A stretch of 64,000 nucleotides of DNA from Escherichia phage vB_EcoM_ESCO25: sequence record OM386656.1. One strand, 5' to 3'. Position numbers and translations under genes: made by a program. Below the pieces are notes generated by a model. The model did no database searches. It was given only the letters and a program-made list of their open reading frames with translations, and was not told the DNA's origin. How positions within the stretch are numbered: position 1 is the first letter of the stretch; each line of letters opens with the position of its first letter. Of this stretch, positions 1-40,051 are shown piece after piece.

Positions 1-994
1 CTAACCACCAATCGCCATCCCTCTCTTCCAAATGACCATCATGTTTCTTAGCAAAATTGATCATATGGTTAGTTGGCTCTAAGTTCTTTTTAATTTGCAA
101 CTTAGGTGGAATAAAAGCCTTAAGATAGCCTTTTGTTGCTGGTTTAGGTGGCAAAATAGGCTCAACGAGTAAACGAAGACGCTCCATTTCTGCATCCAAA
201 AAAGCAAGGTTCTCTTCTGCTTGCTTCATGTTAAAAGCAAACCCACGGTGTTCCTGGCGTGTGATAATGTCTGCTACACGTTGTTCAAGTTCAAATGGAC
301 CTTCCCATTTATCATAATCACCCCATTCTTCCATGAGGTAATTATATACACTTGTGTTGGCTTTGTTATCATAGATACAGTAATAAAGCATATCCGCAGC
401 AAAAGTCTTAAATCGATCTTCTTCTGGAATCTCTTTACGGAAATCTATTTTTACATCCCCGCCTGCCTTTCGAGAAAGTGCTGCCAAGCTATGTCCTGAT
501 TTGCCCTCAATCTTTCGATCTGGGTTTAACACTTTACTCAAAATTAAGGAGTCAATAAGTTTTACCTTGCTTTTACCCCACGTGTTATATTTAACACTGT
601 AATCTAATCCATAAAACAGTTTTGTAGCCAACCAGTCATAGTTGATACCGTTGTGTGCCACAGCCATTTCAACCAAATATTCAGGCTTGTCTTTAAAATA
701 ACCTTCATGATTAATAAAATCTGGGAAATCTTTTAGTTGAAAATGTGTGTAATCTTGCGCCACATATTCTTTAAGAACATATGTATATTTATCATCTGAC
801 TCTTCATAAGGACGACCATCAAAAATGTATTTAGGGCCATCGTGGAAAGCTACTATTTCTCCTGTTTCATGGTTCTCTAAGACAATACAGTGCATTTGAA
901 ATGTGTCTTTGAGACGATAAGGACTAGCTAAATAATCAATAGTATCATTATTCAACAATCCATTTGCTTCAATATCCCATGTAAACTTACTCAC
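1..994 (-). CDS. DNA polymerase, family A (T7 gp5-like), N-terminal 3'-5' exonuclease part; partial, continues beyond window start
   Basis: Minus-strand translation from GTG at 994 (GGAGG upstream) gives VSKFTWDIEANGLL...FHDGPKYIFD...DSLILSKVLNPDRK...GHSLAALSRKAGG, which parallels the T7 DNA polymerase N-terminus (SDIEANALL, FHNGHKYD, DTLVLSRLIH, GSHALEAWG). Not on the ORF track because it runs off the edge. Confidence 0.8.
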   Translation of the reverse strand, partial: MSKFTWDIEANGLLNNDTIDYLASPYRLKDTFQMHCIVLENHETGEIVAFHDGPKYIFDGRPYEESDDKYTYVLKEYVAQDYTHFQLKDFPDFINHEGYFKDKPEYLVEMAVAHNGINYDWLATKLFYGLDYSVKYNTWGKSKVKLIDSLILSKVLNPDRKIEGKSGHSLAALSRKAGGDVKIDFRKEIPEEDRFKTFAADMLYYCIYDNKANTSVYNYLMEEWGDYDKWEGPFELEQRVADIITRQEHRGFAFNMKQAEENLAFLDAEMERLRLLVEPILPPKPATKGYLKAFIPPKLQIKKNLEPTNHMINFAKKHDGHLEERDGDWWL

Positions 995-1788
995 TATTCC
1001 TCCTTTCTAATGTTCTCCAGAACCCACTGAAGTTCTTTTAAACTTAAACTTCTTACTCCCGCAGTTTTACTAGCTTCAGTTTTAAGTAACGGGTAAGCCT
1101 CAATGATACGTGTTTTAAGATCAGAAGTCAAGGCTTTTAAAAAATAGGTAGATGCTTCAGATAAAGAATCTTCTTCTGTTAGCACTTTACCTGCGCTTGC
1201 TCCGGCTCTCCTAACAGCTATGTCGTAGTCTTTGCTGTTACCTAATACGAACAGTCGATTCTCTCCTAAAACAACGGGAGAACGCTTCTGGCTGCGTTTA
1301 ATCCATATTTGGAATACACAAGGAACATCCCAAGGTTCTCCATGAAGAATAAAAGATCCTTTGGGACACTCTTCTTCGTGAAGAAGATGCATATAAGGAT
1401 TTAGTTTGTGTGCAAAAAAGATTTTTTGAAATGTGCGAGGTAAGATAAAACAAATACCACCTTCGTTATCCAGCATTTCAGCACAATGGTTAAAGAACTT
1501 AATGGCAAGACTAGCGTTTTTTCCGAATGGAGGATTACCAACAAAAGCCGTTACACTACCAACAGACTCAACAGATTGAGCTAAAAAATCTGCCTCAATA
1601 CAATCTTCAAACTTAGGGTCAATATCAAAAGAAGTTATGTTTTTAAAACAAGAAGAGAAAGCTCCTTCTCCCGCAGATGGTTCTACGTAGTTAGCTTCCT
1701 CTCCAAAAATTTCTTTGATCTTATCACATAAGAACCCCGCATAAGCGGGGTTAGTGTAATATTGATCAAGTGTGTTCAACTTGCTCAA
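994..1788 (-). CDS. DNA amino-methyltransferase (N6-adenine or N4-cytosine type)
   Basis: 264 aa; motif X-like DQYYTNP, AdoMet motif I VEPSAGEGAF, catalytic motif IV NPPFG. Confidence 0.7.
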   Translation of the reverse strand: MSKLNTLDQYYTNPAYAGFLCDKIKEIFGEEANYVEPSAGEGAFSSCFKNITSFDIDPKFEDCIEADFLAQSVESVGSVTAFVGNPPFGKNASLAIKFFNHCAEMLDNEGGICFILPRTFQKIFFAHKLNPYMHLLHEEECPKGSFILHGEPWDVPCVFQIWIKRSQKRSPVVLGENRLFVLGNSKDYDIAVRRAGASAGKVLTEEDSLSEASTYFLKALTSDLKTRIIEAYPLLKTEASKTAGVRSLSLKELQWVLENIRKEE

Positions 1789-1797
1789 TAGTCCTCC

Positions 1798-2229
1798 TTA
1801 GTTGTTAGCGAACTCAATAGTGAGGTCAACTTTACCATCATCAGAAATAACCATGTTTTTGGTATTTTTAAAGATGATATCTACTTTACCTTCACTTACA
1901 CGACAGAATGCAACACCATCTGCAACTTTATCGATATAATATTTGTAAGAAAGAATACCCACTTTACTACGACCAGCACCTTTTGTGAAAGAAGGGCTTA
2001 CATCGAAACGAAAACCTTTAGAAGAAACAACACGGTAAGAACGTCCAGTTGGAAGATGTTCAATAACAGAGACATTGTTCTCAACAACTTTTACAGCAAA
2101 CTCTTCAGGATGATCCTCAACAATCATGTGTGGGATGGCAAATGCCAACGCTTGTTTGTGTTTAATAACACCAGCACCCAGAGCACCAGCAGCTTTAACT
2201 TTTGCATTCAGATCGATTGTCATACGCAT
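1798..2229 (-). CDS. hypothetical protein
   Basis: 143 aa ORF; consensus promoter and RBS agaggag upstream; function not recognised. Confidence 0.55.
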   Translation of the reverse strand: MRMTIDLNAKVKAAGALGAGVIKHKQALAFAIPHMIVEDHPEEFAVKVVENNVSVIEHLPTGRSYRVVSSKGFRFDVSPSFTKGAGRSKVGILSYKYYIDKVADGVAFCRVSEGKVDIIFKNTKNMVISDDGKVDLTIEFANN

Positions 2230-2262
2230 TTTTACTTCTCCTCTTGTTTGGTTGATGAGACA

Positions 2263-2291
2263 AGTATAAGTCCCTTCCGCAAAGTTGTCAA
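2263..2291 (-). promoter_or_regulatory. sigma70-like promoter (TTGACA-N17-TATACT) for gene 1798..2229
   Basis: Minus-strand reading: TTGACA (2291-2286), 17-nt spacer, TATACT (2268-2263), then RBS and ATG. Confidence 0.6.
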
Positions 2292-2295
2292 CAGG

Positions 2296-2321
2296 TATTT
2301 TTAATAAAAGGGCCGAAGCCC
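2296..2321 (-). terminator. intrinsic terminator after primase-helicase
   Basis: Minus strand: GGGC-TTCG-GCCC hairpin followed by TTTTATT, directly after the stop at 2322. Confidence 0.55.
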
Positions 2322-4100
2322 TTAGTAGTTGCTATCCGTAGGTAAGTTAGCAGGGTTGTTAAAATACTGCTCTTTGTCGTGAAGAGTTGCAGTTCTAATG
2401 TCATAGTAAAACTGCCCTGCTGGACCAGTCTCCGAGAACTCACGGTTTTTTAGGATAAAGCAATGAGTTGTATTACGTTCTACAGGATCTTCAGCAGCCT
2501 TATCTCGTTCCAAAGCCAAGGTAATACCAGCACCTTTAGCCAAGAAACTACTACCCATTGCATCGTCCTCTGTTAAGTGCTCATTGCCACCATTAGCTGA
2601 CTTCTTAACGTGTGAGATGACGATAATAGTTATAGCATACTCTTTCATGATTCGCTTCAACCATGTTGCTAACTCTTCCTGGGCTTGAACATCCATACCA
2701 GAAAGCAAATCAGAATAAGGGTCGATAACAAGAATTGTTACTCCAAAATAGATGATCATCTCCAAAACTTTTTCTTTGATAGACTCCACATCTGCTCCAC
2801 GATCATCACACACGTAAAAACGTGGTGATCCATCTTCTCTTTCGTAAAAATCTAGGATTTTTTCTTTATTCTCTTCCAAGATTTGAAATTTCTCTTCCGG
2901 TGTTTTCCTGTGTAGAGGAATGTGTAGGAAAGAGGATAACAGGTTACGAGAATACTTTTTATAAGTCGCTTCCAAGGACAGAATACCTAGGGTATGTTCT
3001 GGGTGTGCAACAATAATATGTTTGGTGATCTCGTTCACCATCAAAGTTTTACCGATACTGGTCTTTGCCAGGATGACTGTAATCTCTTCCTCTACTAAAC
3101 CACCACCCAACATGTTTGCAGCAACACGCATAAAAGGAGGCAAGGTAATCATCTTGGATTCCAAGCATTCCAATGCAGCTTCATACAAGACATTAGAAGC
3201 ATAAACACCTGCTGGGGTGTATAGACGAGCACTCCAAAAAGCTTTTACGAAATCTTTTGCACGGCCTTCTTCCAGATACTGATTGGCATCCTTAAGATCC
3301 ATCTGCATACGGTAGACTTTGTTACGAGGCAGCACCTTAACAATATTTTCAAATGCCTCGTTACCTGCTTTGTCGTTATCCATGCAAACAATAATCTTCT
3401 TAAATTTTTCAAAGAAAGGATATTGTGCCTGAACTTGTTTATACATACTGGTTTCACCAGTTGTGCCACTTACTACGGCTGGAAGCTCATATTTACTGTC
3501 CAAGTTTTCAGATAGCATTTGATAAGCTGCCAGAGCATCGTGTTCACCACCTGTAATTACAACAGTATGAGAACGATCTGCAAAACGAATTTGTCCAAAA
3601 AGATCTACATCTTTACCTACTTGACCAATAGGTTTACTGAAATCTTTAGGATGAATACGACGCTTAAAACCAACCAATTCTTTACCGATGGTAGTTGGAT
3701 ATAAACAACTTTCTACTACCATCTGATCCCCTTCCTGACGGTATTCATAACGAACACCATAGAAAGATGAAACTTTTTCTTTAATGCCTCGATAACCACG
3801 TGGGTTGGTTGATGTTTCTTGAACAATTTTACGATGAATCTGTTTATTAAATTCCGAACCCACAATCTCCTCCTCTTCTTCTAAAACTTCACCATTTTCT
3901 CGTAACCATTCTACGCTAGGAATAGTGTATTCACACGCAAAGCACTTAGCACCTTTATGCTCTCCATTAGAATCTAATCCATAAACCATCAGGTTATTAC
4001 GAGAGCGATCCTTGCCATTTTTCATGCAGCGCGGACAACCTGTATGTCCTTCCTTGCTAAGATCAACATCAAATCCATATTTAGTTATAATGTGCGACAC
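2322..4100 (-). CDS. bifunctional DNA primase-helicase (T7 gp4-like)
   Basis: 592 aa; N-terminal zinc ribbon CPRC...CFAC; TOPRIM-like VVITGGEHDALAAY and CMDNDKAGNEA; C-terminal helicase Walker A AKTSIGKT and Walker B-like VLVIDPYSD. Confidence 0.85.
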   Translation of the reverse strand: MSHIITKYGFDVDLSKEGHTGCPRCMKNGKDRSRNNLMVYGLDSNGEHKGAKCFACEYTIPSVEWLRENGEVLEEEEEIVGSEFNKQIHRKIVQETSTNPRGYRGIKEKVSSFYGVRYEYRQEGDQMVVESCLYPTTIGKELVGFKRRIHPKDFSKPIGQVGKDVDLFGQIRFADRSHTVVITGGEHDALAAYQMLSENLDSKYELPAVVSGTTGETSMYKQVQAQYPFFEKFKKIIVCMDNDKAGNEAFENIVKVLPRNKVYRMQMDLKDANQYLEEGRAKDFVKAFWSARLYTPAGVYASNVLYEAALECLESKMITLPPFMRVAANMLGGGLVEEEITVILAKTSIGKTLMVNEITKHIIVAHPEHTLGILSLEATYKKYSRNLLSSFLHIPLHRKTPEEKFQILEENKEKILDFYEREDGSPRFYVCDDRGADVESIKEKVLEMIIYFGVTILVIDPYSDLLSGMDVQAQEELATWLKRIMKEYAITIIVISHVKKSANGGNEHLTEDDAMGSSFLAKGAGITLALERDKAAEDPVERNTTHCFILKNREFSETGPAGQFYYDIRTATLHDKEQYFNNPANLPTDSNY

Positions 4101-4112: not shown

Positions 4113-4391
4113 TTAAAATGGTTCGTTAGTCTCCATCATATATTCTGCTTCTAGTTCTTCCATGTGCTTTCTAAATTGGAAAGCAATTTCTGCTACAGTT
4201 ACATTTAAATCTTTTTCAAAAACTTCTGTAGATCCTTCATAAAAACGAATACCGTCAATTAAAAGCCCTCCGTGGTAATCCCAATCGCTTTCACGAGAAA
4301 GTGGATTAGGTTCTTCATAATAGTAATCCACCTCCACGACCAAGGCTTTCCCGTTACGAGTGGTGTATTCAAAATCAAAAGTGTTAATCAT
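4113..4391 (-). CDS. hypothetical protein
   Basis: 92 aa ORF, co-oriented and abutting neighbours. Confidence 0.5.
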   Translation of the reverse strand: MINTFDFEYTTRNGKALVVEVDYYYEEPNPLSRESDWDYHGGLLIDGIRFYEGSTEVFEKDLNVTVAEIAFQFRKHMEELEAEYMMETNEPF

Positions 4392-8859: not shown

Positions 8860-9462
8860 TTATGGACATTCATACCATTCTTTTTTACCACCGAAGGCCA
8901 TCACCACATCGCAAATATCCAGACCAGCTTTACCTACACCATATGCTTTCAGCTTCCATTCTCCATCTTCACGAACCAGGGAAGCCACGTGGCAGATTGT
9001 GTTGCCAGCTACTTCAGGAGCCAGGAAGTCAAAATCCAGAATTTCCACATTGCGCTCGGAGTCGAAGATTTTAAGCATACCTTCAGAAGCATGACCAAAA
9101 CGTTTCAGACCTGTATCATCATCAATGGTCAGAACAAAGGCAATCTCTTGTGCATCAGGAGAGATTTTAGCCAGAGTAATATCAATCTGCTCCATGCTGC
9201 CAGTTCCATCACGAACATCGTCACCAGCGAAGGTAGAACGTTCAGGATCAAACTTGTTAGCATAGCAAACCAGATGACGTGCAGACAGCATTTCAGGATT
9301 GCCAGCGGCATTGTGACGACAAACCAGTGCACTTACATCCAGATCCAGTTTAGAATCAGATTTCCAAGAGAATTCCAGACGCAGTTCTTTCAGAGCCGGA
9401 GCAACTTTCTTCAGGGAAATTTTTTCGCTAGAACCTTTTTTCAGGGAAATTTTATCAGTCAT
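8860..9462 (-). CDS. terD: TerD-family stress protein
   Basis: 200 aa; N-terminal KISLKK repeats, then LDLDVSAL, GDDVRDGTG, EIAFVLTIDD and REDGEWKLKAYGVGKAGL matching the TerD/TerE/TerZ fold signature. Confidence 0.8.
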   Translation of the reverse strand: MTDKISLKKGSSEKISLKKVAPALKELRLEFSWKSDSKLDLDVSALVCRHNAAGNPEMLSARHLVCYANKFDPERSTFAGDDVRDGTGSMEQIDITLAKISPDAQEIAFVLTIDDDTGLKRFGHASEGMLKIFDSERNVEILDFDFLAPEVAGNTICHVASLVREDGEWKLKAYGVGKAGLDICDVVMAFGGKKEWYECP

Positions 9463-9477
9463 CTTTTGTCTCCTCTA

Positions 9478-9747
9478 TTATTTAAGTGTAATACCAGTTA
9501 CAGTCAATTCTACTTCCAAAAGCTTAGATGTGTTTTGGATTGATACTAATTGTGCATGATGGTTTAGTTCTACAGCAGAATAATCATTTTCCCCATCATC
9601 TACTTTTAAATAAACAATGATTTCACTAAGGTCTAAACCATTTTCGTCAAATGCATTTTCATAGACGAAAGTATCTCCTACATCCAAATCTTTAATGGTA
9701 AGGCATCGTTTATTTACTTTTTGCTCATCAATTTCGAAGTTTAACAC
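9478..9747 (-). CDS. hypothetical protein, paralog of 10769..11065
   Basis: 89 aa; shares DLDVGDTFVYENAFDENGLD and C-terminal LEVELTVTGITLK with 10769..11065 (DLGIGATFMYYDAYEDAGLD, VEVDLEVTNITLK). Confidence 0.55.
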   Translation of the reverse strand: MLNFEIDEQKVNKRCLTIKDLDVGDTFVYENAFDENGLDLSEIIVYLKVDDGENDYSAVELNHHAQLVSIQNTSKLLEVELTVTGITLK

Positions 9748-9976
9748 TTCTTCCTCCTAATGTTATCTCCGGTTTGTATATACGAAGAATTATAGCATTT
9801 TCATTTTCTTTGTCAACCCATTCTTCATAATCAGGCCATACATGAATCTCTACTCTACTTACAATATCTTCCATTCGCACAGTCCCAATGAAATACTCTT
9901 TGAGACTGCGCATAATGAAAGCTTCTCTCTCGCGCCAATAATTTTCTATGACTTGAGAGGCAAGCTCGTCGATCAT
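9728..9976 (-). CDS. hypothetical protein
   Basis: 82 aa ORF in operon. Confidence 0.5.
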   Translation of the reverse strand: MIDELASQVIENYWREREAFIMRSLKEYFIGTVRMEDIVSRVEIHVWPDYEEWVDKENENAIILRIYKPEITLGGRSVKLRN

Positions 9977-10767
9977 TTTTTAGCACCTACTTTAACAACC
10001 CACTCTCCGAACTCTTCAGATAAGAGTTTGTCATAAAGCTCTGAATCTGTCAAGTCTAAATCTTTAATGCCAATAAAACCAACATTATCATAAGCATTTG
10101 CCAGTTCTTTCAGGAAGCCAAACTTCTCATTACCAACGCCAACCATGAACCAATAAATAGGTTTATTCTTATTCTCTTCAATAAGACGACGAACAGCACT
10201 AGGATCACCATTCTCACCATCCGTCTGGAAGAATACAACACCAGGGGTAACGTCAGCACCTGGTTCAGACACAGCTACAACCTTTTCACGCTCTACAGAT
10301 ACTGTTTCAGTTTTACCAAGCAGACGATTAAAGAAGCCTTTCTTTGGAGCCTCCTCTTGTACCACTTGTTTAGTGGTAATATATTTGGTAACAGTGCCAA
10401 AATACTCATCGTAGATATCTGCCATTACAGGGGCGTAATTTGTTCCACCTCCGATACGAACATTGCGCATACATTTACCAACATAGTCATCGTAAACGTC
10501 TGCTGTTGCTGGAGTAAGCTCTTGGGAACTCGTATTGAAGGCCCACATATCAATTTGTTGATTATCGTCGAACAGCATACCAAAAGGAAGCAGTTTACCT
10601 ACAAAATCACTCACTACCCCACTAGAATATAGACCATGCATACTACCAGAAATATCTAGAGCACATGCTACACGAAGAACAATCTTACCTTCATTCAGGT
10701 TCTTATTCTTTTTCAGAGAGAAAGCAAGGTTTTCTTGACGTTTTTTCAGGCTGATTTTCTCGGACAT
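9973..10767 (-). CDS. von Willebrand factor A (vWA) domain protein, TerY-like, with TerD-like ISLKK N-terminus
   Basis: 264 aa; N-terminal KISLKK...FSLKK, then a MIDAS-type ACALDISGSM (DxSxS), GGGTNYAPVM and VVFFQTDGENG. Confidence 0.7.
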   Translation of the reverse strand: MSEKISLKKRQENLAFSLKKNKNLNEGKIVLRVACALDISGSMHGLYSSGVVSDFVGKLLPFGMLFDDNQQIDMWAFNTSSQELTPATADVYDDYVGKCMRNVRIGGGTNYAPVMADIYDEYFGTVTKYITTKQVVQEEAPKKGFFNRLLGKTETVSVEREKVVAVSEPGADVTPGVVFFQTDGENGDPSAVRRLIEENKNKPIYWFMVGVGNEKFGFLKELANAYDNVGFIGIKDLDLTDSELYDKLLSEEFGEWVVKVGAKK

Positions 10768-10768
10768 A

Positions 10769-11065
10769 TTATTTCTCCTTCTTAAGTGTAATATTGGTAA
10801 CTTCTAAATCTACTTCCACCATATTTGTATCTGGCGGGATGCAATGAGTATAGCCTCGTTGTGCTAGTGATCCATTAATACAGATCGCACTGTTTGTGGA
10901 ATTTTTAATGAACACCAAGTTACGGTAGGTATCCAACCCTGCGTCTTCATAGGCATCATAATACATGAATGTGGCCCCTATGCCAAGATCTTCGAAAGCA
11001 ATAGGTAAATCCTGACACTTTTCTTCTTGAATATTGAATCTAAACACGCATACCTCCTCTACCAA
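10769..11065 (-). CDS. hypothetical protein, paralog of 9478..9747
   Basis: 98 aa; see paralog motifs above. Confidence 0.5.
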   Translation of the reverse strand: MVEEVCVFRFNIQEEKCQDLPIAFEDLGIGATFMYYDAYEDAGLDTYRNLVFIKNSTNSAICINGSLAQRGYTHCIPPDTNMVEVDLEVTNITLKKEK

Positions 11066-11603
11066 TTTTGAAGCCCAAATCGTAAGCTTCTTTAGTGATC
11101 TTTTGCAACTCGCTTATAGGAAGTGTTACAAGAGGATCATCTTCTTCAATTTCCATCTTGTCATCTTCTGTTTCAATGAGAGTATTATGCACTTTATGAT
11201 AAGGGTTGTCAACACGTTTAAACTTATTCTTTTCTGTGCTGAAGAAACAATCTGGATCTTCTTCACCATCACCCCAACCTTGATTAGGATCTCTGTCAGA
11301 TTGTTCTGTAGGGATCTCACCTGTAAAGTACTCTTCCAGCACCATAGCGATGCCGTCCCTTGGATTTGAGGAATGCATCAAATCACAAACCTTACTCCAA
11401 TCCATAGCCCAGTCGAACCGTTCACGAACGCCATTTTCATCCTCTTTTCCAGAGAAAACACAACCATAACTATCATAGTTGCCATACATCTCTTCAATAA
11501 CAACACCGTCCTTCAAAAGAAAGAGGTAGCAAGGTGATCCGTCGAAAGAAGTAGAAAGGGCAGCTTTGCCCGATTCTTTGCACAAAAAGCTAAAACAACC
11601 CAT
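11040..11603 (-). CDS. hypothetical acidic protein
   Basis: 187 aa ORF; Asp/Glu-rich. Confidence 0.5.
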   Translation of the reverse strand: MGCFSFLCKESGKAALSTSFDGSPCYLFLLKDGVVIEEMYGNYDSYGCVFSGKEDENGVRERFDWAMDWSKVCDLMHSSNPRDGIAMVLEEYFTGEIPTEQSDRDPNQGWGDGEEDPDCFFSTEKNKFKRVDNPYHKVHNTLIETEDDKMEIEEDDPLVTLPISELQKITKEAYDLGFKIGRGGMRV

Positions 11604-11806
11604 TACAAACCCTCCTTCAGATTATCAAGAGCTACAGTGGTTTCACAAAATTCTCCATAAGCTTTATGATGTTCCAGAAAAGCTTCGGGTCCACCCCAAT
11701 CATTGTCTTGTGTATTCCAGCCATCAATAAAAGCATCTTCAATGATTGTGATCAGTTCTTGTCGGGTTAACTGGATAATATTAGGGTCGTTATCGTAGTT
11801 AAACAT
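11603..11806 (-). CDS. hypothetical protein
   Basis: 67 aa ORF. Confidence 0.45.
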   Translation of the reverse strand: MFNYDNDPNIIQLTRQELITIIEDAFIDGWNTQDNDWGGPEAFLEHHKAYGEFCETTVALDNLKEGL

Positions 11807-11972
11807 CCTCTTCCTCCTCTAAAATATGGAACCCGTAATTACAATAGTCCTGAAAGGTTTCGTGTGCAAGATCTTCTATATCCTCTTGAGACATATCATC
11901 TTCAATTTCGATATCCACAACCTCATTGCATCCACACCAAGCAGTTTCAATATTCACTCGTAATATTTTCAT
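11799..11972 (-). CDS. hypothetical small protein (57 aa), not on ORF track
   Basis: Manual translation MKILRVNIETAWCGCNEVVDIEIEDDMSQEDIEDLAHETFQDYCNYGFHILEEEDV; start overlaps the upstream stop as TAATG with a GAGGAGG RBS; fills an otherwise unexplained gap. Confidence 0.4.
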   Translation of the reverse strand: MKILRVNIETAWCGCNEVVDIEIEDDMSQEDIEDLAHETFQDYCNYGFHILEEEEDV

Positions 11973-12169
11973 TACTCCTCCTCCTCATTGAAGTCAATAT
12001 CTGCAAGGAGTTCGAATTTACGGAAGTTACGACAACCTTCATAAATATAACAATCACGACAAACTGCTAGAACACTTGGGGGATATATGCCTCCCATCGG
12101 CGCGAATCGTTTTTCGTCATCATAACGGACACCAATGTCCTCATCAATTATATAGATACGGATTCTCAT
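11972..12169 (-). CDS. hypothetical protein (Cys-containing)
   Basis: 65 aa ORF. Confidence 0.45.
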   Translation of the reverse strand: MRIRIYIIDEDIGVRYDDEKRFAPMGGIYPPSVLAVCRDCYIYEGCRNFRKFELLADIDFNEEEE

Positions 12170-13278
12170 TTACCAAGCCCTCGTTTCACAGCAGCTACCA
12201 TCCCGTCTTCCAAAGATTGAACTTCATTAATATAATCAACACGAGCAGCACGGGCTTCCGTATTGATGCGGTTAGTTTCTTCCAACATCTTAACCAAGTT
12301 TTCCTGATCGTGACGCAGAGTTTCAATATCCAACACTTGACGGTTAGCCAGTGCTGCTGCTTCGATCTGATTCTGTGTGGCAAGATCGCTACCCAGTTTA
12401 ATTGCCAGGTTAAATTCATCAAGAACGTTATTCTGCGTCTCTGCTGCTTTCATTTGACGTAAGCTCTCGATATACATTGAGAAGTTAGCAGAGTAAGCAG
12501 GAATAACATTATTTACTATGTTACGCGCAGATCGCATTAAGCTTGCAGAAACTTTTTGCATACCTTGTACACGCGGTCCCATTTGGACACACAGTAGGCG
12601 CAATGCTTTTAAATCTGCAATACGAATCTCCAGAAGATCCAAAGTATCTCGGATCACTTGTCGCTGTTCTACTGCATCTTCTGGAAGAGCAGCCAAAGCT
12701 TGTTCTTCTTTTTCATAGGTTGCTGTTAGAAGCTGCATATCTCGGTTCAAACTTGCAGCATATTGTCCAATAGCTTGATGTAGCTTTTCAAGATATACCA
12801 AGGAATCTTCTTCTTTGCGAATATCCATTTGAAGGTTTTTTACCAACTCTTCAATACGGTTATTAACATTATCAAACTCCCCAAACAGATCTTCTTTCAT
12901 ACCCATAACTTTTTTAATGAGTTTAGTAATACCCTTGCTTTGTTTAATAGAGTTTGGATCAAGTTGTTTTGCCTGTTTAATCAAAGCTGTGAGTCGTTCA
13001 CTCATCTGATCGCCTTGATTACTACGTTGATGTTTTAATACCTCGGCATTCAAGGAACGCAAGGTTGTTCCTGCCTCTGCCCCAATCTCTTCGATCTCCT
13101 GTCGGGTCATAGAAGGCAAAACTGGAACTTCTTGCGGTGCCGCTGGTGCATAAACAGGACTGGCATCTAACACGCTTGGAGCGAATACAGATTTACTTGC
13201 ATCTGTTGTTGCAGCAAATACGCTCATTTCAGGTTTCTTCTGACAGCCAGTAGCTGCTTTTAAAAATGGACTTGTCAT
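12166..13278 (-). CDS. TelA-like toxic-anion-resistance family protein
   Basis: 370 aa, predicted all-helical; N-terminal EIEEIGAEAGTTLRSLNAEVLKHQRSNQGDQMSERLTALIKQAKQLDP parallels the conserved TelA/KlaA N-terminal block. Confidence 0.6.
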   Translation of the reverse strand: MTSPFLKAATGCQKKPEMSVFAATTDASKSVFAPSVLDASPVYAPAAPQEVPVLPSMTRQEIEEIGAEAGTTLRSLNAEVLKHQRSNQGDQMSERLTALIKQAKQLDPNSIKQSKGITKLIKKVMGMKEDLFGEFDNVNNRIEELVKNLQMDIRKEEDSLVYLEKLHQAIGQYAASLNRDMQLLTATYEKEEQALAALPEDAVEQRQVIRDTLDLLEIRIADLKALRLLCVQMGPRVQGMQKVSASLMRSARNIVNNVIPAYSANFSMYIESLRQMKAAETQNNVLDEFNLAIKLGSDLATQNQIEAAALANRQVLDIETLRHDQENLVKMLEETNRINTEARAARVDYINEVQSLEDGMVAAVKRGLGK

Positions 13279-13865
13279 TCTTCATTCTCCTCTTCTGCAT
13301 CTCTTATATATGGTGAAACACCGTACTCTTTAGCTACTTTAACCCAATCGTCCCATTTATACAACCATAATTTTCCTTCGGTCCCTTCTTTATCTGATTT
13401 CAACCACATATTAGGTTGCTTACCTGGGTACATGCGATTAGGTTTACGATTATAACCTCTAACACATCTTGTCGCAAACCTATCTACCAGAACAAGAACA
13501 TATTTATATTCGTGGTTCAACGGCTCTTTGGAAGTGGCTTTAGGATTAGCCCCTAACTCTGCTGCCAGTTTTTGCCAATGAGCACCGTGTCTACTAAACT
13601 TACCCATACAACCATCAATAGCATGAGCAATTTCGTGCTTCATTGTATCCACGATCATATCTCTTGTAGAGTTCTTATGCAAGTGCCAATTTACAACAAC
13701 AATTTTATCTCGGTAGTTGCACCAACCGAAAGAGTTATTCACTTTGTTTCTAACACAAGCTTTATATCCTGCTTCACGTAACATGTTGTAGTAAACAGGA
13801 AAATCTTCTTTTATTTCCTGCATCACTTCCCACCACAAGAGTTGCAAGTCTCTCTCGGTATACAT
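13275..13865 (-). CDS. SprT-like zinc metallopeptidase domain protein
   Basis: 196 aa; HExxH motif MKHEIAHAIDGCMGKFSRHGAHW with an SprT-like N-terminal region. Confidence 0.55.
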   Translation of the reverse strand: MYTERDLQLLWWEVMQEIKEDFPVYYNMLREAGYKACVRNKVNNSFGWCNYRDKIVVVNWHLHKNSTRDMIVDTMKHEIAHAIDGCMGKFSRHGAHWQKLAAELGANPKATSKEPLNHEYKYVLVLVDRFATRCVRGYNRKPNRMYPGKQPNMWLKSDKEGTEGKLWLYKWDDWVKVAKEYGVSPYIRDAEEENEE

Positions 13866-13868
13866 AAC

Positions 13869-14462
13869 TTACACCTTAAAAGTGAAATGCGTGGTCGTGG
13901 TTTCAAAATCAGGACCAGATAAACGTGCACTGAAATCTGAAATATTTGTAATTAAAAAGCTTTTATGCATACCTAACACAGCTACGCTTTCAATATCTTC
14001 TACTAACATTTCAATCATGTTAGAAACATGGCTGAACGTAGAGTTTTGTTTTTTGATGGTGTAGAAAGAAAGATTCCCACCTGCTGTATAAGATACCTCT
14101 TCAAAATCTTTAATGGTATATTGTGTGCCATCAGTAAAGAAAATGGTAGCTTTATTAGTAGCACGTTTCTTGTTTTTTGGTCCTTTTTTACGTTTACTGC
14201 GAGTAGGCAAACCGTTTGGGAACACCATAGCTACAAATTCTTCAGCAGAAACCTCCTTACCGAAATCATAACCATAAGAAACAGCGTCTATAAACTCGTC
14301 ATCTTCATTTTTAAAATAATGGAAATAGGGCCAATTTGAAAGATTATCAAGCATCTTATGCTCGTCCACAGCAGAGAATGTATCCCTCAAAGCGCGTGTG
14401 ATTTGCAAAGCATTAGGCAACCTTTTAACACCTACGATGGAAGTACGAATAGAAATTGTCAT
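13869..14462 (-). CDS. hypothetical protein
   Basis: 197 aa ORF. Confidence 0.5.
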   Translation of the reverse strand: MTISIRTSIVGVKRLPNALQITRALRDTFSAVDEHKMLDNLSNWPYFHYFKNEDDEFIDAVSYGYDFGKEVSAEEFVAMVFPNGLPTRSKRKKGPKNKKRATNKATIFFTDGTQYTIKDFEEVSYTAGGNLSFYTIKKQNSTFSHVSNMIEMLVEDIESVAVLGMHKSFLITNISDFSARLSGPDFETTTTHFTFKV

Positions 14463-14476
14463 TGTTTTTCTCCTTA

Positions 14477-14914
14477 TTAACGTCGCTTGCTACGAGATGA
14501 ACTCTTTTTACTTAAAGGGCTATTGTAAGATTTACGAGTTGTATAGCTACTATTTGTTTTAAAAGTTTGTCTCGGCTTTTCATAAGTTTTTATCTCTTGT
14601 TTAGGCTTACTATAAAAATTAGTTTTCGGTTTAGGTGTATTATAATGCTTATTAATAATCGTTCTGTTATCGTTATAATCCCCACTGCTACGATTACTAC
14701 CGCCACTCATCATATGCCCTAACAACATACCTGTAGCAAACTCACCAACACCGCTACTACTAGAACCGCCACCATTGTTGATAATAGTTGTATCTCCGTC
14801 AGATCCTTGTTGAGCGTATTGTTGAGGAGGTTGTTGGTATTGTGCAGGATTTGTCTCATCCTCGCAAGCTGTTAAAAAGATACAACCAATTAAAATCAGG
14901 GCTAGTTTTTTCAT
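14477..14914 (-). CDS. lipoprotein, low-complexity Q/G/S-rich
   Basis: Start trimmed to MKKLALILIGCIFLTAC (lipobox LTAC); the remainder is Gln/Gly/Ser/Lys-rich. Confidence 0.6.
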   Translation of the reverse strand: MKKLALILIGCIFLTACEDETNPAQYQQPPQQYAQQGSDGDTTIINNGGGSSSSGVGEFATGMLLGHMMSGGSNRSSGDYNDNRTIINKHYNTPKPKTNFYSKPKQEIKTYEKPRQTFKTNSSYTTRKSYNSPLSKKSSSRSKRR

Positions 14915-15101
14915 ATTTGCTTTCCTCGTTTTGGCTATTAATACATCTGTGTTTGAAATCTCCAGAGAAGCAATAAAGTTGCTCTCCATCTCGGTATAAA
15001 CTCACTTTACTGCCGTTGATTACGCTTGTCAATACAAAAATTACAACAAACAACCCTATTGCAAAACAAATATTTTCAAACACAACCAACAAGTATTTCA
15101 T
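14856..15101 (-). CDS. possible small membrane protein
   Basis: 81 aa ORF with hydrophobic N-terminus LLVVFENICFAIGLFVVIFVLTSVI; overlaps the lipoprotein start, so uncertain. Confidence 0.35.
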   Translation of the reverse strand: MKYLLVVFENICFAIGLFVVIFVLTSVINGSKVSLYRDGEQLYCFSGDFKHRCINSQNEESKYEKTSPDFNWLYLFNSLRG

Positions 15102-15448
15102 TTTAAAAATACCTCATCATCAGTTTCATTATCCCAGAAGAACAAGTCCCAACCATTCGGATCATTCCATTTAGCTGCTGGAGAAGTCCATATTTGCTCG
15201 ATATCAATATTCAAAACTTCACCGTTTCGTTTTGAAACAGCTTTAGTTAATTCCCAACGGGATACAGGCTCCACTTCCCCTGAACCACTCCCACAACAAG
15301 CTACCACATTAGGAGGCAAATTAATTGGATCTTTGGTCACGATCATAACGCTTACCCCAGGGTAAACTTTTGAAAGATAATCTAAAACGTAATCCACATC
15401 ACCAGATAAATCCCAAACAAGTTCTTGAATTTCATCAAAATTACTCAT
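15098..15448 (-). CDS. hypothetical protein
   Basis: 116 aa ORF; RBS aggagag. Confidence 0.5.
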   Translation of the reverse strand: MSNFDEIQELVWDLSGDVDYVLDYLSKVYPGVSVMIVTKDPINLPPNVVACCGSGSGEVEPVSRWELTKAVSKRNGEVLNIDIEQIWTSPAAKWNDPNGWDLFFWDNETDDEVFLK

Positions 15449-15454
15449 AAGTCT

Positions 15455-15484
15455 CTCCTATAAAATAGCCTCCCGAAGGAGGCT
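15455..15484 (-). terminator. intrinsic terminator after terC
   Basis: AGCCTCC-cgaa-GGAGGCT hairpin (15467-15484), followed on the minus strand by TATTTTATA. Confidence 0.55.
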
Positions 15485-15490
15485 CATTTA

Positions 15491-16465
15491 TTAAACAGTA
15501 GCTTCTTCTTTTTCAGGGAAGATAAAGCTTGCAATAACACCAAGAGATAATGTGCCTAGAACAATCATCAGACTTACGTTAGGGGAAATATCATGCGGGA
15601 GGAATGACCACTTGGCATGAAGTGTTTCACCGAACGGGTGATACATAAGTTTAGCACCAACAAACACCAGAACCACAGCAACAGCTTTCTCTAAGTGAAC
15701 CAGATATTTCACAGCTACACTTAACACAAAGAAAAGTGCACGTAAACCAAGAACAGCCATCAGCATTGCAGAATAAACTAGCAGAGGTTCTTGTGTCACA
15801 CCGATCACAGCCGGAACTGAATCAAAAGAGAAGACAATATCTGTAAGCTCAATAACAAACACACAAAGAAGAGCAGGAGTTGCATATTTAATACCATTCT
15901 TAATGGTGATGAACTTTTCACCATCCAGTGCATTGTGCACAGGCAGAACTTTACCTACTAAACGAACAGCCCAATGTTTAGAGTAATCAATATCCTCTTC
16001 TTTGTCACCACCTTTGATGATAGCCACGGCAGACCAAGCTACAATCAAACCGAACAACACTTGGACCGACCAATGAAGGTTAAACAAAGCGGTCCCTGCT
16101 GCAACAAAAATACCTCGGAAGACAATGGCTCCTGCAATCCCCCAAAGTAGAATCTTATGTTGGAGATGTGTGCTCTTAATTCCAAAGCTTGCAAAAATTG
16201 CCATGAACACCATTAGGTTATCTACAGAAAGACTCTTTTCCAACACATAGCCACTTAGGAAAAGCGCGGCAAACTCTTTACCATGTTCTACCCAAATGAA
16301 TGCGTAATACCCTAAAGCTAAAGCAATCCAAAAAACAGACCAAAGCAAAGCAGATTTAATTCCAATTTCTTTATTCTCTTTATGACCAAAGAAATCGATA
16401 CCAATAGACAATGCTAAAATACCAACTAAAACAACTACATCAATAATTGGGAAACCGAGTTGCAT
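15491..16465 (-). CDS. terC: TerC-family integral membrane protein
   Basis: 324 aa, multiple transmembrane helices; LSGYVLEKSLSVDNLMVFMAIF and downstream helices match the TerC/Alx signature (LSxDNxxVF). Confidence 0.8.
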   Translation of the reverse strand: MQLGFPIIDVVVLVGILALSIGIDFFGHKENKEIGIKSALLWSVFWIALALGYYAFIWVEHGKEFAALFLSGYVLEKSLSVDNLMVFMAIFASFGIKSTHLQHKILLWGIAGAIVFRGIFVAAGTALFNLHWSVQVLFGLIVAWSAVAIIKGGDKEEDIDYSKHWAVRLVGKVLPVHNALDGEKFITIKNGIKYATPALLCVFVIELTDIVFSFDSVPAVIGVTQEPLLVYSAMLMAVLGLRALFFVLSVAVKYLVHLEKAVAVVLVFVGAKLMYHPFGETLHAKWSFLPHDISPNVSLMIVLGTLSLGVIASFIFPEKEEATV

Positions 16466-19569: not shown

Positions 19570-20040
19570 CTAATCTGATTGCCAACCACTCGCCGTTTTG
19601 GTCCATAATCTTTGATTATCTGACCCTCTGAAAGGTTTTGTGGTTGGATTGTTTATTTCATACTTTCCGTCTACAATAATGTCAACAAGATTTTTAATAT
19701 ACAAAGGCACTTCCTCAAAAGTATATCCTGTATACACCATTATATCTTTGCTTGACCCATAAACGTCTCTAACCTTTTCTATAAGGTTTTTAACATTGTA
19801 AATATTCTGCGGATCTAATGGTTCTCCTCCTAAAATTGTTAAACCTTTTACAAACGGTCTTGACAAATCTTTTAAAACTTGCTCTACATTTTCGTTAGTG
19901 AACGGTTTCCCATAAGAATAAGACCAGGCTTTCTGGTTAAAACAGCCACGACAACCGTGGCTACAACCACTAACCCAGAGGGAGCACCTAACTCCCTCAC
20001 CATTAATAAGATCTACAGGTTCATATCCTGCAAAATTCAA
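19570..20040 (-). CDS. nrdG: anaerobic ribonucleotide reductase activating protein (radical SAM)
   Basis: 156 aa; CSLWVSGCSHGCRGCFN cysteine cluster; overlaps nrdD by 4 nt. Confidence 0.85.
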   Translation of the reverse strand: MNFAGYEPVDLINGEGVRCSLWVSGCSHGCRGCFNQKAWSYSYGKPFTNENVEQVLKDLSRPFVKGLTILGGEPLDPQNIYNVKNLIEKVRDVYGSSKDIMVYTGYTFEEVPLYIKNLVDIIVDGKYEINNPTTKPFRGSDNQRLWTKTASGWQSD

Positions 20041-38233: not shown

Positions 38234-38419
38234 GATATCGCCCTTTCTTTGTTGTGCGCCCTGGTTGGCGCGGTAGAAAGATAATAGCCCTTTTCTTTAT
38301 ATATAGCAAGCAAAAAGAAAATAAAAAAGATTGAAAAATGGTTGACGTTAACCAGGCGGCGGCGTAGTATTCATCTTGTAGGGCGGCAATGGTGCCGCTC
38401 ACTATTTGGAGTTAAGATC

Positions 38420-38617
38420 ATGGCAACATTGCACATTGTGGCGAAAGCTGGACAAATCAACGTAGTGGTAAACGGTTTTACTGAGTTCAGTCACCCCCAG
38501 GATGATCATGAAACGGTTTTATCTTTCATTGATTCCCTGTTAGAAATGGGAGTCATTACAGAAGACCAGCACGCTACAAAATGCAAGCGCGTTAATCAAA
38601 TCGCAGGAATAGAATAA
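38420..38617 (+). CDS. hypothetical small protein (cassette gene)
   Basis: Start set at ATG after cassette hairpin (MATLHIVAKAG...); the track ORF began upstream of the promoter. Confidence 0.5.
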   Translation: MATLHIVAKAGQINVVVNGFTEFSHPQDDHETVLSFIDSLLEMGVITEDQHATKCKRVNQIAGIE

Positions 38618-38707
38618 AAACTATTGACAACAAACAACAACCTGATAAGATGTATCACATAGGGCGGGAAGTGGTTTCCCGCTCGTAACAGAAGAGAGAT
38701 TATCATC

Positions 38708-38980
38708 ATGGCATCATATAGCGCAACAATGATCGTAGCTGGCACAACTGGTAAACCTATGAGCGGTGGCGGATCTTTCGCTAATATCAATATTGACGGG
38801 CGTTTATCCCTGGACGCAGCGATCGCTATTGCACGGGAAACATTTAAGAAAGAATGTAATTTCAACAAGCAAGATTATCTCGGTTTCGCTATTGAAAAAA
38901 CCGCGCGCTTTGTTGATTATAAAAGCCCGAAAATGGTTGATACTACACTAAAAGCGCAAGATGTAGCGTTTTTGCTTTAA
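38708..38980 (+). CDS. hypothetical small protein (cassette gene)
   Basis: 90 aa ORF after cassette; RBS agagag. Confidence 0.5.
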   Translation: MASYSATMIVAGTTGKPMSGGGSFANINIDGRLSLDAAIAIARETFKKECNFNKQDYLGFAIEKTARFVDYKSPKMVDTTLKAQDVAFLL

Positions 38981-39056
38981 GGCTTGACATTAACGAATAA
39001 TTTGTTAATATGTTACATAAAGCGGGAATAGTTCCCGCTATTTGTAAGGTGGTAGA

Positions 39057-39314
39057 ATGTTTTACATCAAATTAAAAGGTCACGTGATCGCGTTCAAAGA
39101 TAACGCTTTTTACAGATTAGCAAAATATGCGTTAATACATCCCCACTATGTTTATATAAGGAGGCGTGATGAAATAAATATCTTTGATCAAACAACATGC
39201 GAGAACATCGAGATCCGCAAGGTTGGCGTACGTGATTATCGTACATCTTTCTACCCTTGCAAGGATTCAGCAAGTCTTTTTAAAGTATGCCAATTGTTGA
39301 AAAAAGGTGGTTAA
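39057..39314 (+). CDS. hypothetical small protein (cassette gene)
   Basis: 85 aa ORF after cassette. Confidence 0.5.
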   Translation: MFYIKLKGHVIAFKDNAFYRLAKYALIHPHYVYIRRRDEINIFDQTTCENIEIRKVGVRDYRTSFYPCKDSASLFKVCQLLKKGG

Positions 39315-39873: not shown

Positions 39874-39955
39874 CATATCGCCGCCACTGGCATAATATTT
39901 ACCACGTAGGGCGGCAATGGTGCCGCTCATAGTGAAATTATGCAAGAGGCTTACA

Positions 39956-40051
39956 ATGATTAATAAAGAAAATAGCTTGACGGTTGGAACGATTAACGCT
40001 ATCATTCTAGCCGTTCCATTTTGGATTGTAGTAGCGGCTATTATTTTCTAA
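39956..40051 (+). CDS. hydrophobic micro-ORF (31 aa), not on ORF track
   Basis: MINKENSLTVGTINAIILAVPFWIVVAAIIF, downstream of cassette 39870..39927. Confidence 0.35.
   Translation: MINKENSLTVGTINAIILAVPFWIVVAAIIF

What the first reader, a model, noticed from the sequence alone, without database searches (positions are those of the whole stretch)
1..4100. Mosaic architecture: T7-like replication module inside a genome carrying T4-style PeSL cassettes and class III ribonucleotide reductase
The DNA polymerase N-terminus and primase-helicase are clearly T7 gp5/gp4-like, with a DNA methyltransferase between them. The same window carries nrdDG, Ter genes and PeSL-like cassettes, which are more typical of large myovirus-type genomes. 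The combination suggests a lineage not well represented by the classical model phages.
Basis: inference. Interest (0 to 1): 0.4.

Follow-up and report, generated by a model that had tools for sequence, protein, structure and literature searches.

The report
Ordinary phAPEC8-type coliphage replication genes
The window is a stretch of a well-sampled E. coli myovirus genus (Phapecoctavirus, phAPEC8-like), and its T7-type primase-helicase and DNA polymerase genes are the normal, conserved replication genes of that group rather than an unusual mosaic.

Summary
T7 gp5 and gp4 are the only significant solved-structure relatives. NrdD/NrdG, TerD/TelA/TerC and about 20 promoter-plus-hairpin cassettes are also present.

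The window is 98-99.8% identical and collinear with Phapecoctavirus genomes (ukendt, ESCO13). The primase-helicase followed by polymerase pair also occurs in Citrobacter phage Tr1, Pakpunavirus and Vequintavirus. Those groups also share the capsid and terminase, so the pairing is typical of a broad myovirus supergroup. T7 proteins are only 27-29% identical and GC content is uniform, which gives no sign of recent import.

Two real but modest mosaic signals remain:
- The replication pair is closest to Pakpunavirus, whereas capsid, terminase and NrdD are closest to Vequintavirinae.
- The 143-aa ORF and the methyltransferase look like a genus-specific insertion carrying its own hairpin and promoter.

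Already known; low interest.

The parts
1..994 (-). N-terminal 331 codons of a T7 gp5-type family A DNA polymerase. It covers the 3'-5' exonuclease domain and the start of the thumb insertion. The GTG start at 994-992 overlaps the stop of the upstream gene. The gene runs off the window.
   Evidence: phrog_17 E 1.2e-39. Exo I/II/III motifs aligned with T7 gp5. The full-length relative matches T7 gp5 at E 6.5e-17. 99-100% identical to ukendt and ESCO13 polymerases.
994..1788 (-). 264-aa probable DNA amino-methyltransferase (motif I EPSAGEGAF, motif IV NPPFG).
   Evidence: Pfam Eco57I E 0.008, below cut-off. phrog_5172 3.5e-109 and phrog_799 'DNA methyltransferase' 1e-10. No NCBIfam or PDB support. 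Annotated as putative N6-adenine MTase in ukendt.
1798..2229 (-). 143-aa ORF of unknown function, the first gene of the two-gene insert.
   Evidence: phrog_9938 9.8e-63, no Pfam or NCBIfam match. Not homologous to the ORF at the same place in phage 92CQ.
2230..2323 (-). Intergenic regulatory cassette: hairpin AAGGGCTTCGGCCCTT (2323-2308) with a T-run, TTGACA (2291-2286), a 17-nt spacer, TATACT (2268-2263), a Shine-Dalgarno sequence, and ATG at 2229.
   Evidence: Read directly from the sequence. The promoter scores 11/12, the best in 1-4500.
2322..4100 (-). 592-aa T7 gp4-type bifunctional primase-helicase: Cys4 zinc ribbon, TOPRIM domain, SF4 helicase.
   Evidence: Pfam Toprim_2 and DnaB_C. T7 gp4 structures at E 4e-25. 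phrog_239 1.7e-164. Catalytic residues conserved in alignment A1.
4113..4391 (-). 92-aa conserved small ORF directly upstream of the primase-helicase.
   Evidence: phrog_4240 6.4e-33. An ORF of about 90 aa sits at the same position in 92CQ and Citrobacter phage Tr1.
4391..7536 (-). Four glycosyltransferase genes. The second is split by an extra C in a C-run at 5576.
   Evidence: RefSeq annotation of ukendt and ESCO13. Frameshift located.
8860..16465 (-). Ter gene set: TerD 8860-9462, TelA 12166-13278, TerC 15491-16465.
   Evidence: Pfam TerD 3.2e-28, TelA 3.2e-33, TerC 3e-40.
19570..21851 (-). Class III ribonucleotide reductase: NrdD 20037-21851 and activase NrdG 19570-20040.
   Evidence: Pfam NRDD 6.2e-165, Gly_radical 6e-27, Fer4_12 2.9e-42.
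38342..47420 (+). Array of about 19 promoter-hairpin cassettes in front of tiny early ORFs. Each has an A-rich upstream stretch, TTGACA, 16-17 nt, TAAGAT/TAATAT, about 10 nt, a GC hairpin, a Shine-Dalgarno sequence and ATG.
   Evidence: Repeat families D1-D7. Pattern scan. Alignment A3. Hairpin energies -9.3 to -21.2 kcal/mol, mean z -3.4. Indel junctions against relatives.

Best explanation
Window 1-4100 is the conserved core replication locus of a Phapecoctavirus (phAPEC8-like, subfamily Stephanstirmvirinae, an E. coli myovirus of about 150 kb).

Inferred mechanism, by homology with the T7 replisome:
- A gp4-type protein forms a ring helicase on the lagging strand and lays down RNA primers with its zinc-ribbon and TOPRIM domains.
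- A gp5-type family A polymerase with a proofreading exonuclease extends the primers.
- The helicase's C-terminal aromatic tail probably contacts the polymerase.

History of the locus:
- The gene pair was inherited vertically within the subfamily. It is the standard replication pair of a wide supergroup of myoviruses (Pakpunavirus, Vequintavirinae, FelixO1-like, ICP1-like, Rheinheimera Barba phages). It is not a recent import from a T7-like podovirus.
- In the Phapecoctavirus lineage a two-gene block was inserted between the two replication genes. The block is a 143-aa ORF plus a methyltransferase, preceded by its own hairpin and sigma-70 promoter.
- NrdDG, the Ter genes and the promoter-hairpin cassettes are likewise fixed features of the genus.

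Shown here: identity with the genus, domain and motif content, synteny, and distribution across phage groups. Inferred: enzymatic roles, the helicase-polymerase contact, and the direction of the insertion event.
For: Placement in the genus:
- Megablast gives 99.3% identity to ukendt over 1-8000, with 70 records covering at least 80% of the query.
- It gives 99.8% identity to ESCO13 over 8001-33000.
- The window is collinear with ESCO13 from 1 to 41324.

Distribution of the markers by tblastn:
- The primase-helicase is found in 3085 phage records: 64 at 99% or more, 69 at 60-90%, Pakpunavirus about 40%, T7 about 27%, Vequintavirus about 21%.
- The polymerase is found in 2666 records: Citrobacter Tr1 79%, Pakpunavirus 51%, T7 about 29% over a quarter of the protein.

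Synteny:
- Primase-helicase and polymerase are directly adjacent and co-oriented in Pakpunavirus JG003, Vequintavirus magaca and Citrobacter Tr1.
- A different, non-homologous ORF sits between them in 92CQ.

Shared virion genes: capsid and terminase homologues occur in the same groups.

Catalytic motifs are conserved:
- Primase-helicase: TOPRIM E186 and D241xD243, Walker A G350-K351, D460, H497, K551/R553, terminal Y592.
- Polymerase: Exo I-III, motifs A/B/C, C-terminal His.

Composition: GC is 0.37-0.40 in 1-4000 against 0.37-0.43 across the window.

Insert: a hairpin plus an 11/12 promoter lies in front of the 143-aa ORF.

Literature:
- PMC3606486 groups phAPEC8 and phi92 with rV5 and notes the GP4d-type helicase with podovirus homologues.
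- PMC8594841 treats Phapecoctavirus as a close relative of Vequintavirinae.
Against: - Relationships were judged from ranked tblastn identities and four-sequence alignments, not from proper trees.
- Nearest neighbours outside the subfamily disagree between markers. The replication pair is nearest Pakpunavirus (41-56%) against Vequintavirus (24-27%). Capsid, terminase and NrdD are nearest Vequintavirinae (38-42%, and 66-72% for NrdD) against Pakpunavirus (29-32%). Strict vertical descent of all modules from one ancestor is therefore unlikely at depth.
- Only the N-terminal third of the polymerase is in the window.
- The methyltransferase assignment rests on motifs and a weak profile hit.
- No experiment on this genus's replisome was found in the library.
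Confidence: 0.9

Rival explanations
1. Ancient module exchange within the myovirus supergroup. The Stephanstirmvirinae ancestor shares its primase-helicase/polymerase pair more recently with Pakpunavirus-type Pseudomonas phages than with Vequintavirinae. Its virion genes and NrdD share ancestry with Vequintavirinae. On this reading the locus is a genuine but very old mosaic joint. This is compatible with the best explanation for the recent history.
For: - Pairwise identity for the polymerase: 55.6% to Pakpunavirus JG003, 27.1% to Vequintavirus magaca.
- Pairwise identity for the primase-helicase: 40.8% to JG003, 24.1% to magaca.
- The major capsid protein is 41-42% identical to Vequintavirinae and relatives, against 29-30% to Pakpunavirus.
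- The terminase is 38-41% against 32%.
- NrdD is 66-72% identical to Vequintavirinae.
Against: - Unequal evolutionary rates could give the same ranking without any transfer, for example fast-evolving or replaced replication genes in Vequintavirinae.
- No trees or topology tests were run.
- NrdD may itself be exchanged among enterobacterial phages. Its distribution takes in T4-like, T5-like and jumbo phages.
Confidence: 0.4
2. Recent horizontal acquisition of a T7-type replication module by a T4-style large myovirus. This is the strong reading of the first reader's 'mosaic'.
For: T7 gp4 and gp5 are the only significant solved-structure relatives. T7-specific details are present, namely the C-terminal His and an insertion at the position of the thioredoxin-binding loop.
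Against: - Identity to T7 is only 27-29%.
- Closer homologues exist in many myoviruses.
- The pair is conserved in position across the whole subfamily and in other myovirus genera.
- There is no GC anomaly.
- The genome is not T4-like. Its capsid and terminase relatives are rV5-, FelixO1-, PAK_P1- and ICP1-type phages.
Confidence: 0.02
3. Assembly chimera or contamination that joined pieces of different phages in one contig.
For: None beyond the superficial mix of 'T7-like' and 'T4-like' gene names. Some database relatives carry implausible host labels, such as Campylobacter and Acinetobacter.
Against: More than 60 independently sequenced genomes from several countries show the same gene order across the joints.
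Confidence: 0.01

Closest known systems
Escherichia phages ukendt, ESCO13 and phAPEC8 (genus Phapecoctavirus, subfamily Stephanstirmvirinae)
   Same: 98-99.8% nucleotide identity and the same gene order over at least window 1-41324. Polymerase, primase-helicase and NrdD proteins are identical or nearly identical.
   Different: - The window is a patchwork of genus variants. Positions 1112-4100 are 100% identical to ukendt, 1-1111 are about 3% diverged from it, and 6500-9000 are 100% identical to ESCO13.
- There are indels in the early-gene array.
- One glycosyltransferase is frameshifted.
- ukendt carries an intein in the polymerase that ESCO13 lacks. The window ends before that site.
Bacteriophage T7 gp4 primase-helicase and gp5 DNA polymerase
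   Same: - The domain order is the same: zinc ribbon, TOPRIM and SF4 helicase in one chain, and exonuclease plus family A polymerase in the other.
- Catalytic residues are conserved.
- The helicase has a C-terminal aromatic residue and the polymerase a C-terminal His.
- An insertion lies where T7 has its thioredoxin-binding loop.
   Different: - Identity is only 27-29%.
- The polymerase is about 160 aa longer.
- The helicase tail is much less acidic.
- No internal gp4B-type start was examined, and thioredoxin dependence is unknown.
- The genes sit in a 150-kb myovirus transcribed from sigma-70-type promoters rather than by a phage RNA polymerase.
Pakpunavirus (PAK_P1/JG003-type Pseudomonas myoviruses) replication pair
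   Same: These are the nearest relatives outside the subfamily: polymerase 51-56% and primase-helicase 40-41%. The two genes are adjacent and co-oriented.
   Different: - There is no ORF or methyltransferase between the two genes.
- The genomes are about 92 kb and infect a different host order.
- Capsid and terminase are more distant (29-32%) than those of Vequintavirinae.
Vequintavirus (rV5-like) phages
   Same: These are the closest relatives for capsid (about 42%), terminase (about 39-41%) and NrdD (66-72%). They also have primase/helicase followed by polymerase A, and they carry NrdDG (PMC3606486).
   Different: The replication pair is only 24-27% identical, no closer than T7's.
T4-type PeSL cassettes (Arbiol 2010, PMC2839356; Comeau 2014, PMC4122927)
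   Same: - Composite repeats with an AT-rich stretch, a near-consensus sigma-70 promoter, a GC stem-loop, a Shine-Dalgarno sequence and a start codon.
- They cluster in a variable region of tiny ORFans.
- Indel junctions between close relatives fall in the repeats.
   Different: - The host genome is not T4-like.
- In most copies the hairpin starts about 10 nt after the -10 box, so it would be the 5' end of the mRNA, and it has no U-run.
- Terminator activity and mini-circles were not tested.
- Only the cassette at 2323-2229 has the hairpin-before-promoter layout.

Membership tests
Genus Phapecoctavirus (ICTV genus criterion: about 70% or more nucleotide identity over the genome; established knowledge) | High nucleotide identity and collinearity with type-group genomes | tested here: met
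   98-99.8% identity at 100% coverage for window 1-33000. 97% identity at 91% coverage for 39001-64000. Only the 64-kb window could be tested, not the whole genome.
T7 gp4-type bifunctional primase-helicase | N-terminal Cys4 zinc ribbon | tested here: met
   CPRC...CFAC is present in the first about 60 residues (translation; shared with Pakpunavirus). MAFFT did not align it to the T7 ribbon.
T7 gp4-type bifunctional primase-helicase | TOPRIM primase domain with catalytic E and DxD | tested here: met
   Pfam Toprim_2 3.6e-9. E186 and D241xD243 are invariant with T7.
T7 gp4-type bifunctional primase-helicase | SF4 (DnaB-like) helicase domain with Walker A/B, motif 3 His and an arginine finger, in the same polypeptide | tested here: met
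   Pfam DnaB_C 2.3e-15. G350-K351, D460, H497 and K551/R553 are invariant. T7 gp4 structures align over residues 146-574.
T7 gp4-type bifunctional primase-helicase | Acidic C-terminal tail ending in an aromatic residue that binds the polymerase | tested here: inconclusive
   The terminal Y592 aligns with T7 F566 and with Y/F in two other phages. The tail (...PTDSNY) is barely acidic. Binding is not testable here.
T7 gp5-type family A DNA polymerase | 3'-5' exonuclease motifs Exo I, II and III | tested here: met
   D7xE9, H114-N115..D120 and D209 are invariant with T7, and all lie inside the window.
T7 gp5-type family A DNA polymerase | Polymerase motifs A, B and C and a C-terminal His | tested here: met
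   D570, R623/K627/Y631-G632, H753-D754-E755 and H865 are present in the ESCO13 orthologue. These residues lie outside the window. Pfam DNA_pol_A scores only 30.9 bits, below the 34.3 cut-off.
T7 gp5-type family A DNA polymerase | Thioredoxin-binding loop in the thumb and dependence on host thioredoxin | not testable with these tools
   An insertion of similar length lies at the same position (about aa 272-345), flanked by a conserved HIKNWL..GWVPSEY motif. The loop sequence is not similar to T7's.
Class III ribonucleotide reductase NrdD/NrdG | NRDD domain with a glycyl-radical motif, plus an adjacent radical-SAM activase | tested here: met
   Pfam NRDD 6.2e-165, Gly_radical 6.1e-27, and Fer4_12 2.9e-42 with Radical_SAM 3.2e-9 in the overlapping downstream gene.
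DNA N6-adenine/N4-cytosine amino-methyltransferase | AdoMet-binding motif I and catalytic (D/N)PP(F/Y) motif IV; a profile match above threshold | tested here: inconclusive
   The motifs EPSAGEGAF and NPPFG are present. Pfam Eco57I scores 16.7 bits against a 25.3 cut-off. phrog_799 scores 1e-10. There is no NCBIfam hit, and the best PDB hit has E 0.24.
T4-type PeSL regulatory cassettes | Repeated composite of a sigma-70-like promoter plus a stem-loop in front of small ORFs in a variable region | tested here: met
   16 strict and 3-4 degenerate copies. Hairpin mean z is -3.4 against shuffles.
T4-type PeSL regulatory cassettes | Recombination between cassettes generates indels between close relatives | tested here: inconclusive
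   Overlapping-homology junctions occur at 41247-41324, 45834-45865 and 47140-47145. About 9 of 18 junction edges fall in cassettes that cover about 23% of the region. Intergenic placement alone could explain part of this enrichment.
T4-type PeSL regulatory cassettes | The stem-loop acts as a terminator/attenuator; the host genome is T4-like | tested here: not met
   The genome is not T4-like. Most hairpins lie downstream of the -10 box and lack a U-run. Terminator activity itself is not testable here.

The most novel reading that the evidence does not exclude
Stephanstirmvirinae may run their own PeSL-type gene-shuffling system, independent of T4-like phages. In this system a promoter plus a 5'-terminal mRNA hairpin serves both as an expression unit and as a recombination site. 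One such hairpin-promoter unit may have delivered the 143-aa ORF plus methyltransferase between the primase-helicase and polymerase genes. At greater depth, the replisome pair itself may have been exchanged with Pakpunavirus-type phages after the split from Vequintavirinae.
Probability: 0.3. Interest if true: 0.35.

Novelty: already known. Interest (0 to 1): 0.1.

Why it matters
It matters little for discovery. The finding re-describes the standard gene content of a named, heavily sequenced coliphage genus used in phage-therapy work.

Its use is as a correction. A T7-type primase-helicase/polymerase pair in a large myovirus is common (rV5-like, PAK_P1-like, FelixO1-like and ICP1-like phages) and should not be flagged as a mosaic.

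Three side observations are cheap to follow up, but none addresses a long-standing open question:
- The incongruence between replication and morphogenesis markers at subfamily depth.
- The genus-specific insertion between the two replication genes.
- The promoter-hairpin cassettes in the early region.

Tried and rejected
- RNAalifold on the 20 aligned cassettes returned no consensus structure, because MAFFT misaligned the variable-length 3' arms. I used per-sequence folding instead.
- Rfam at gathering threshold found nothing in the window.
- ARAGORN found no tRNA in the window.
- NCBIfam and PDB sequence searches gave nothing significant for the methyltransferase or the 143-aa ORF.
- I tested whether the methyltransferase and small ORF near the polymerase of phage 92CQ are homologous to those in the window. 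They are not.
- The primary phAPEC8 and phi92 genome papers (PMC3497662, PMC3457257) are not held. I could not check whether they already describe the cassettes or the replication genes.
- Searches of held papers on Stephanstirmvirinae found no description of the cassettes.
- I considered and rejected a recent T7-to-myovirus transfer and an assembly chimera (see the rival explanations).
- I did not use the large protein databases, structure prediction or metagenome scans, because the identification was already unambiguous.

Full report
**What is in the region.** All long ORFs in window 1 to about 30850 are on the minus strand. Reading that strand, the order is:
- a 92-aa ORF (4391-4113);
- a 592-aa primase-helicase (4100-2322);
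- a 92-nt spacer;
- a 143-aa ORF (2229-1798);
- a 264-aa protein (1788-994);
- a polymerase gene that starts at a GTG overlapping the previous stop (994) and runs off the window after 331 codons.

It missed the 143-aa ORF.

**Primase-helicase.**
- Pfam finds Toprim_2 and DnaB_C, and PHROGs finds 'DNA primase/helicase' at 1.7e-164.
- The only solved structures matched are T7 gp4 entries (best E 4e-25, residues 146-574).
- BLASTP against T7 gp4A gives 27% identity over 447 residues.
- I aligned it with T7, a Pakpunavirus and a Vequintavirus. The TOPRIM Glu and DxD, Walker A Gly-Lys, Walker B Asp, motif 3 His, the Lys/Arg finger and a C-terminal aromatic residue are all invariant.
- A CPRC...CFAC zinc ribbon sits at the N-terminus.

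**Polymerase.**
- The window fragment matches PHROG 17 'DNA polymerase' (1.2e-39). It carries Exo I, II and III residues aligned with T7 gp5.
- Full-length orthologues match only T7 gp5 among solved structures (6.5e-17).
- They carry motifs A, B and C, end in ...CH as T7 gp5 does, and have an insertion where T7 has its thioredoxin-binding loop.
- Pfam DNA_pol_A is below its gathering score, so this is a divergent family A enzyme whose nearest characterised relative is T7's.

**Methyltransferase.** This call is the weakest. Motifs I and IV are visible. Profile support is limited to a sub-threshold Eco57I hit and phrog_799 at 1e-10, and NCBIfam and the PDB give nothing.

- Pfam confirms NrdD, NrdG, TerD, TelA, TerC and a UvrD-type helicase.
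- The 'PeSL-like cassettes' are real. Between 38342 and 47420 about 19 intergenic spacers share an A-rich stretch, TTGACA, 16-17 nt, TAAGAT/TAATAT, a conserved GTATCAC(A/G)TAGGGCGG stretch leading into a GC hairpin, a purine-rich Shine-Dalgarno sequence and ATG. One more copy precedes terC on the minus strand.
- Each hairpin folds at -9.3 to -21.2 kcal/mol, with a mean z of -3.4 against shuffles. It starts about 10 nt after the -10 box and is not followed by a U-run.

**What the window is.**
- Megablast places it in genus Phapecoctavirus: 99.3% to phage ukendt for 1-8000, 99.8% to ESCO13 for 8001-33000, and 97% at 91% coverage to Ro121c4YLVW for 39001-64000.
- It is collinear with ESCO13 from 1 to 41324.
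That condition is met.
- The group has been described as rV5/phi92 relatives since 2012-2013 (PMC3606486). It is covered in the BASEL and Danish wastewater surveys (PMC8594841, PMC7552041).

**Is the T7-type pair foreign to this kind of genome? No.**
- The primase-helicase has homologues in 3085 phage records and the polymerase in 2666.
- Outside the subfamily the closest are Pakpunavirus-type Pseudomonas myoviruses (41% and 56% in pairwise alignment). T7 and Vequintavirus are roughly equidistant at 24-29%.
- The two genes are adjacent and co-oriented in Pakpunavirus JG003, Vequintavirus magaca and Citrobacter phage Tr1.
- The capsid and terminase of this genus have their homologues in the same set of groups: Vequintavirinae, Pakpunavirus, Otagovirus-like, ICP1, Barba and FelixO1-like phages.
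- A gp4/gp5-type pair is therefore the usual replication equipment of this myovirus supergroup. PMC3606486 already noted the GP4d-type helicase with podovirus homologues in rV5.
- GC content in 1-4000 (0.37-0.40) does not differ from the rest of the window.
- NrdDG is found in 2923 phage records across rV5-like, T4-like, T5-like and jumbo phages, so its co-occurrence with a T7-type pair is not diagnostic of anything.

**Residual mosaicism.** I found three layers.
- Deep: the replication genes are nearest Pakpunavirus. Capsid (42% against 29%), terminase (39-41% against 32%) and NrdD (66-72%) are nearest Vequintavirinae. This could reflect an old module exchange or unequal rates. I ran no trees.
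- Genus level: the 143-aa ORF and the methyltransferase lie between two genes that are adjacent in Tr1, Pakpunavirus and Vequintavirus. Phage 92CQ has a different, non-homologous ORF there. The insert is preceded by stop, hairpin, T-run, TTGACA-17-TATACT, Shine-Dalgarno and ATG. This is the classical moron/PeSL layout.
- Strain level: the window is a patchwork of genus variants. Positions 1112-4100 are identical to ukendt, 1-1111 are about 3% diverged, and 6500-9000 are identical to ESCO13.

**Cassettes as recombination sites (partly followed up).** I compared the window with four relatives.
- Several indel junctions show duplicated homology inside a cassette (41247-41324, 45834-45865, 47140-47145).
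- About half of the junction edges fall in cassettes that occupy about a quarter of the region.
- The 37-nt core occurs in 145 phage records. It is multi-copy in Phapecoctavirus, present in one or two copies in Justusliebigvirus, and single in some Vequintavirus genomes.
- This fits PeSL-type shuffling (PMC2839356, PMC4122927). The hairpin position, however, suggests a 5'-terminal mRNA stem-loop rather than a terminator. That function is inferred, not shown.

**Verdict.** This is a known, ordinary locus of a known genus, and interest is low.

Noticed in passing
window 38342-47420 (+), plus 16541 (-): There are about 20 promoter-plus-hairpin cassettes in front of tiny early ORFs. The hairpin starts about 10 nt after the -10 box and has no U-run, so it would form the 5' end of each mRNA. 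Stem sequences differ between copies (GCGGCA/TGCCGC, GCGGGAA/TTCCCGC, GGCGGCGGA/TCCACCGCC) but pairing is kept. Indel junctions against four relatives often fall in them. I found no description of them in the held literature.
   Followed up: partly
L001:3580-7149 (- strand; phage ukendt polymerase, outside the window): The ukendt polymerase is 1189 aa against 865 aa in ESCO13. It has a 324-aa insertion in motif B (KYG|C...TGN|CTYGA) with a LAGLIDADG-like block and a weak match to the PI-PkoII endonuclease, which makes it a probable intein. Ro121c4YLVW also matches in two pieces. The window ends before this site, so its state here is unknown.
   Followed up: partly
window 5343-6330 (-), indel at 5576: The second of four glycosyltransferase genes is split into two ORFs by an extra C in a C-run (CCCCC here, CCCC in ukendt and ESCO13). 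This is either a homopolymer sequencing error or a real pseudogene.
   Followed up: partly
window 1-9793: Identity to close relatives is patchy. Positions 1112-4100 are 100% identical to ukendt, while 1-1111 carry 36 mismatches to it. Positions 6500-9000 are 100% identical to ESCO13. This points to recombination among co-circulating Phapecoctaviruses.
   Followed up: partly
window 21955-23340 (-) and 23333-23890 (-): A 461-aa protein just upstream of nrdD is annotated 'ribonucleotide reductase' (phrog_15930) but has no Pfam or NCBIfam match. The 185-aa protein beside it is annotated 'histidyl tRNA synthetase' (phrog_4806) and also has no Pfam match. Both names look doubtful.
   Followed up: no
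window 60972-61649 (+): A serine recombinase/DNA invertase homologue (phrog_125, 1.1e-32; called 'gin' in Ro121c4YLVW) sits in a virulent myovirus. PMC5374246 states that no recombinase genes were found in ESCO5 and ESCO13.
   Followed up: no
H227-H229 (T5-like phages, left terminal repeat, about 5119-5259): A 27-nt stretch of the cassette (the -10 box plus TTACCACGTAGGGCGGCAATG) matches at 96% in the left terminal repeat of several T5-like phages (E 9e-4). This may be chance or a shared early-promoter/leader motif.
   Followed up: no
window 4391-7536 (-): Four consecutive glycosyltransferase genes lie directly upstream of the replication genes. [quoted passage not shown] PMC8594841 reports these phages as very sensitive to restriction-modification systems.
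   Followed up: no
window 34607-36067 (+): A 486-aa HNH/homing-type endonuclease (phrog_681) contains an internal set of direct repeats about 225 nt apart (34625, 34853, 35075).
   Followed up: no
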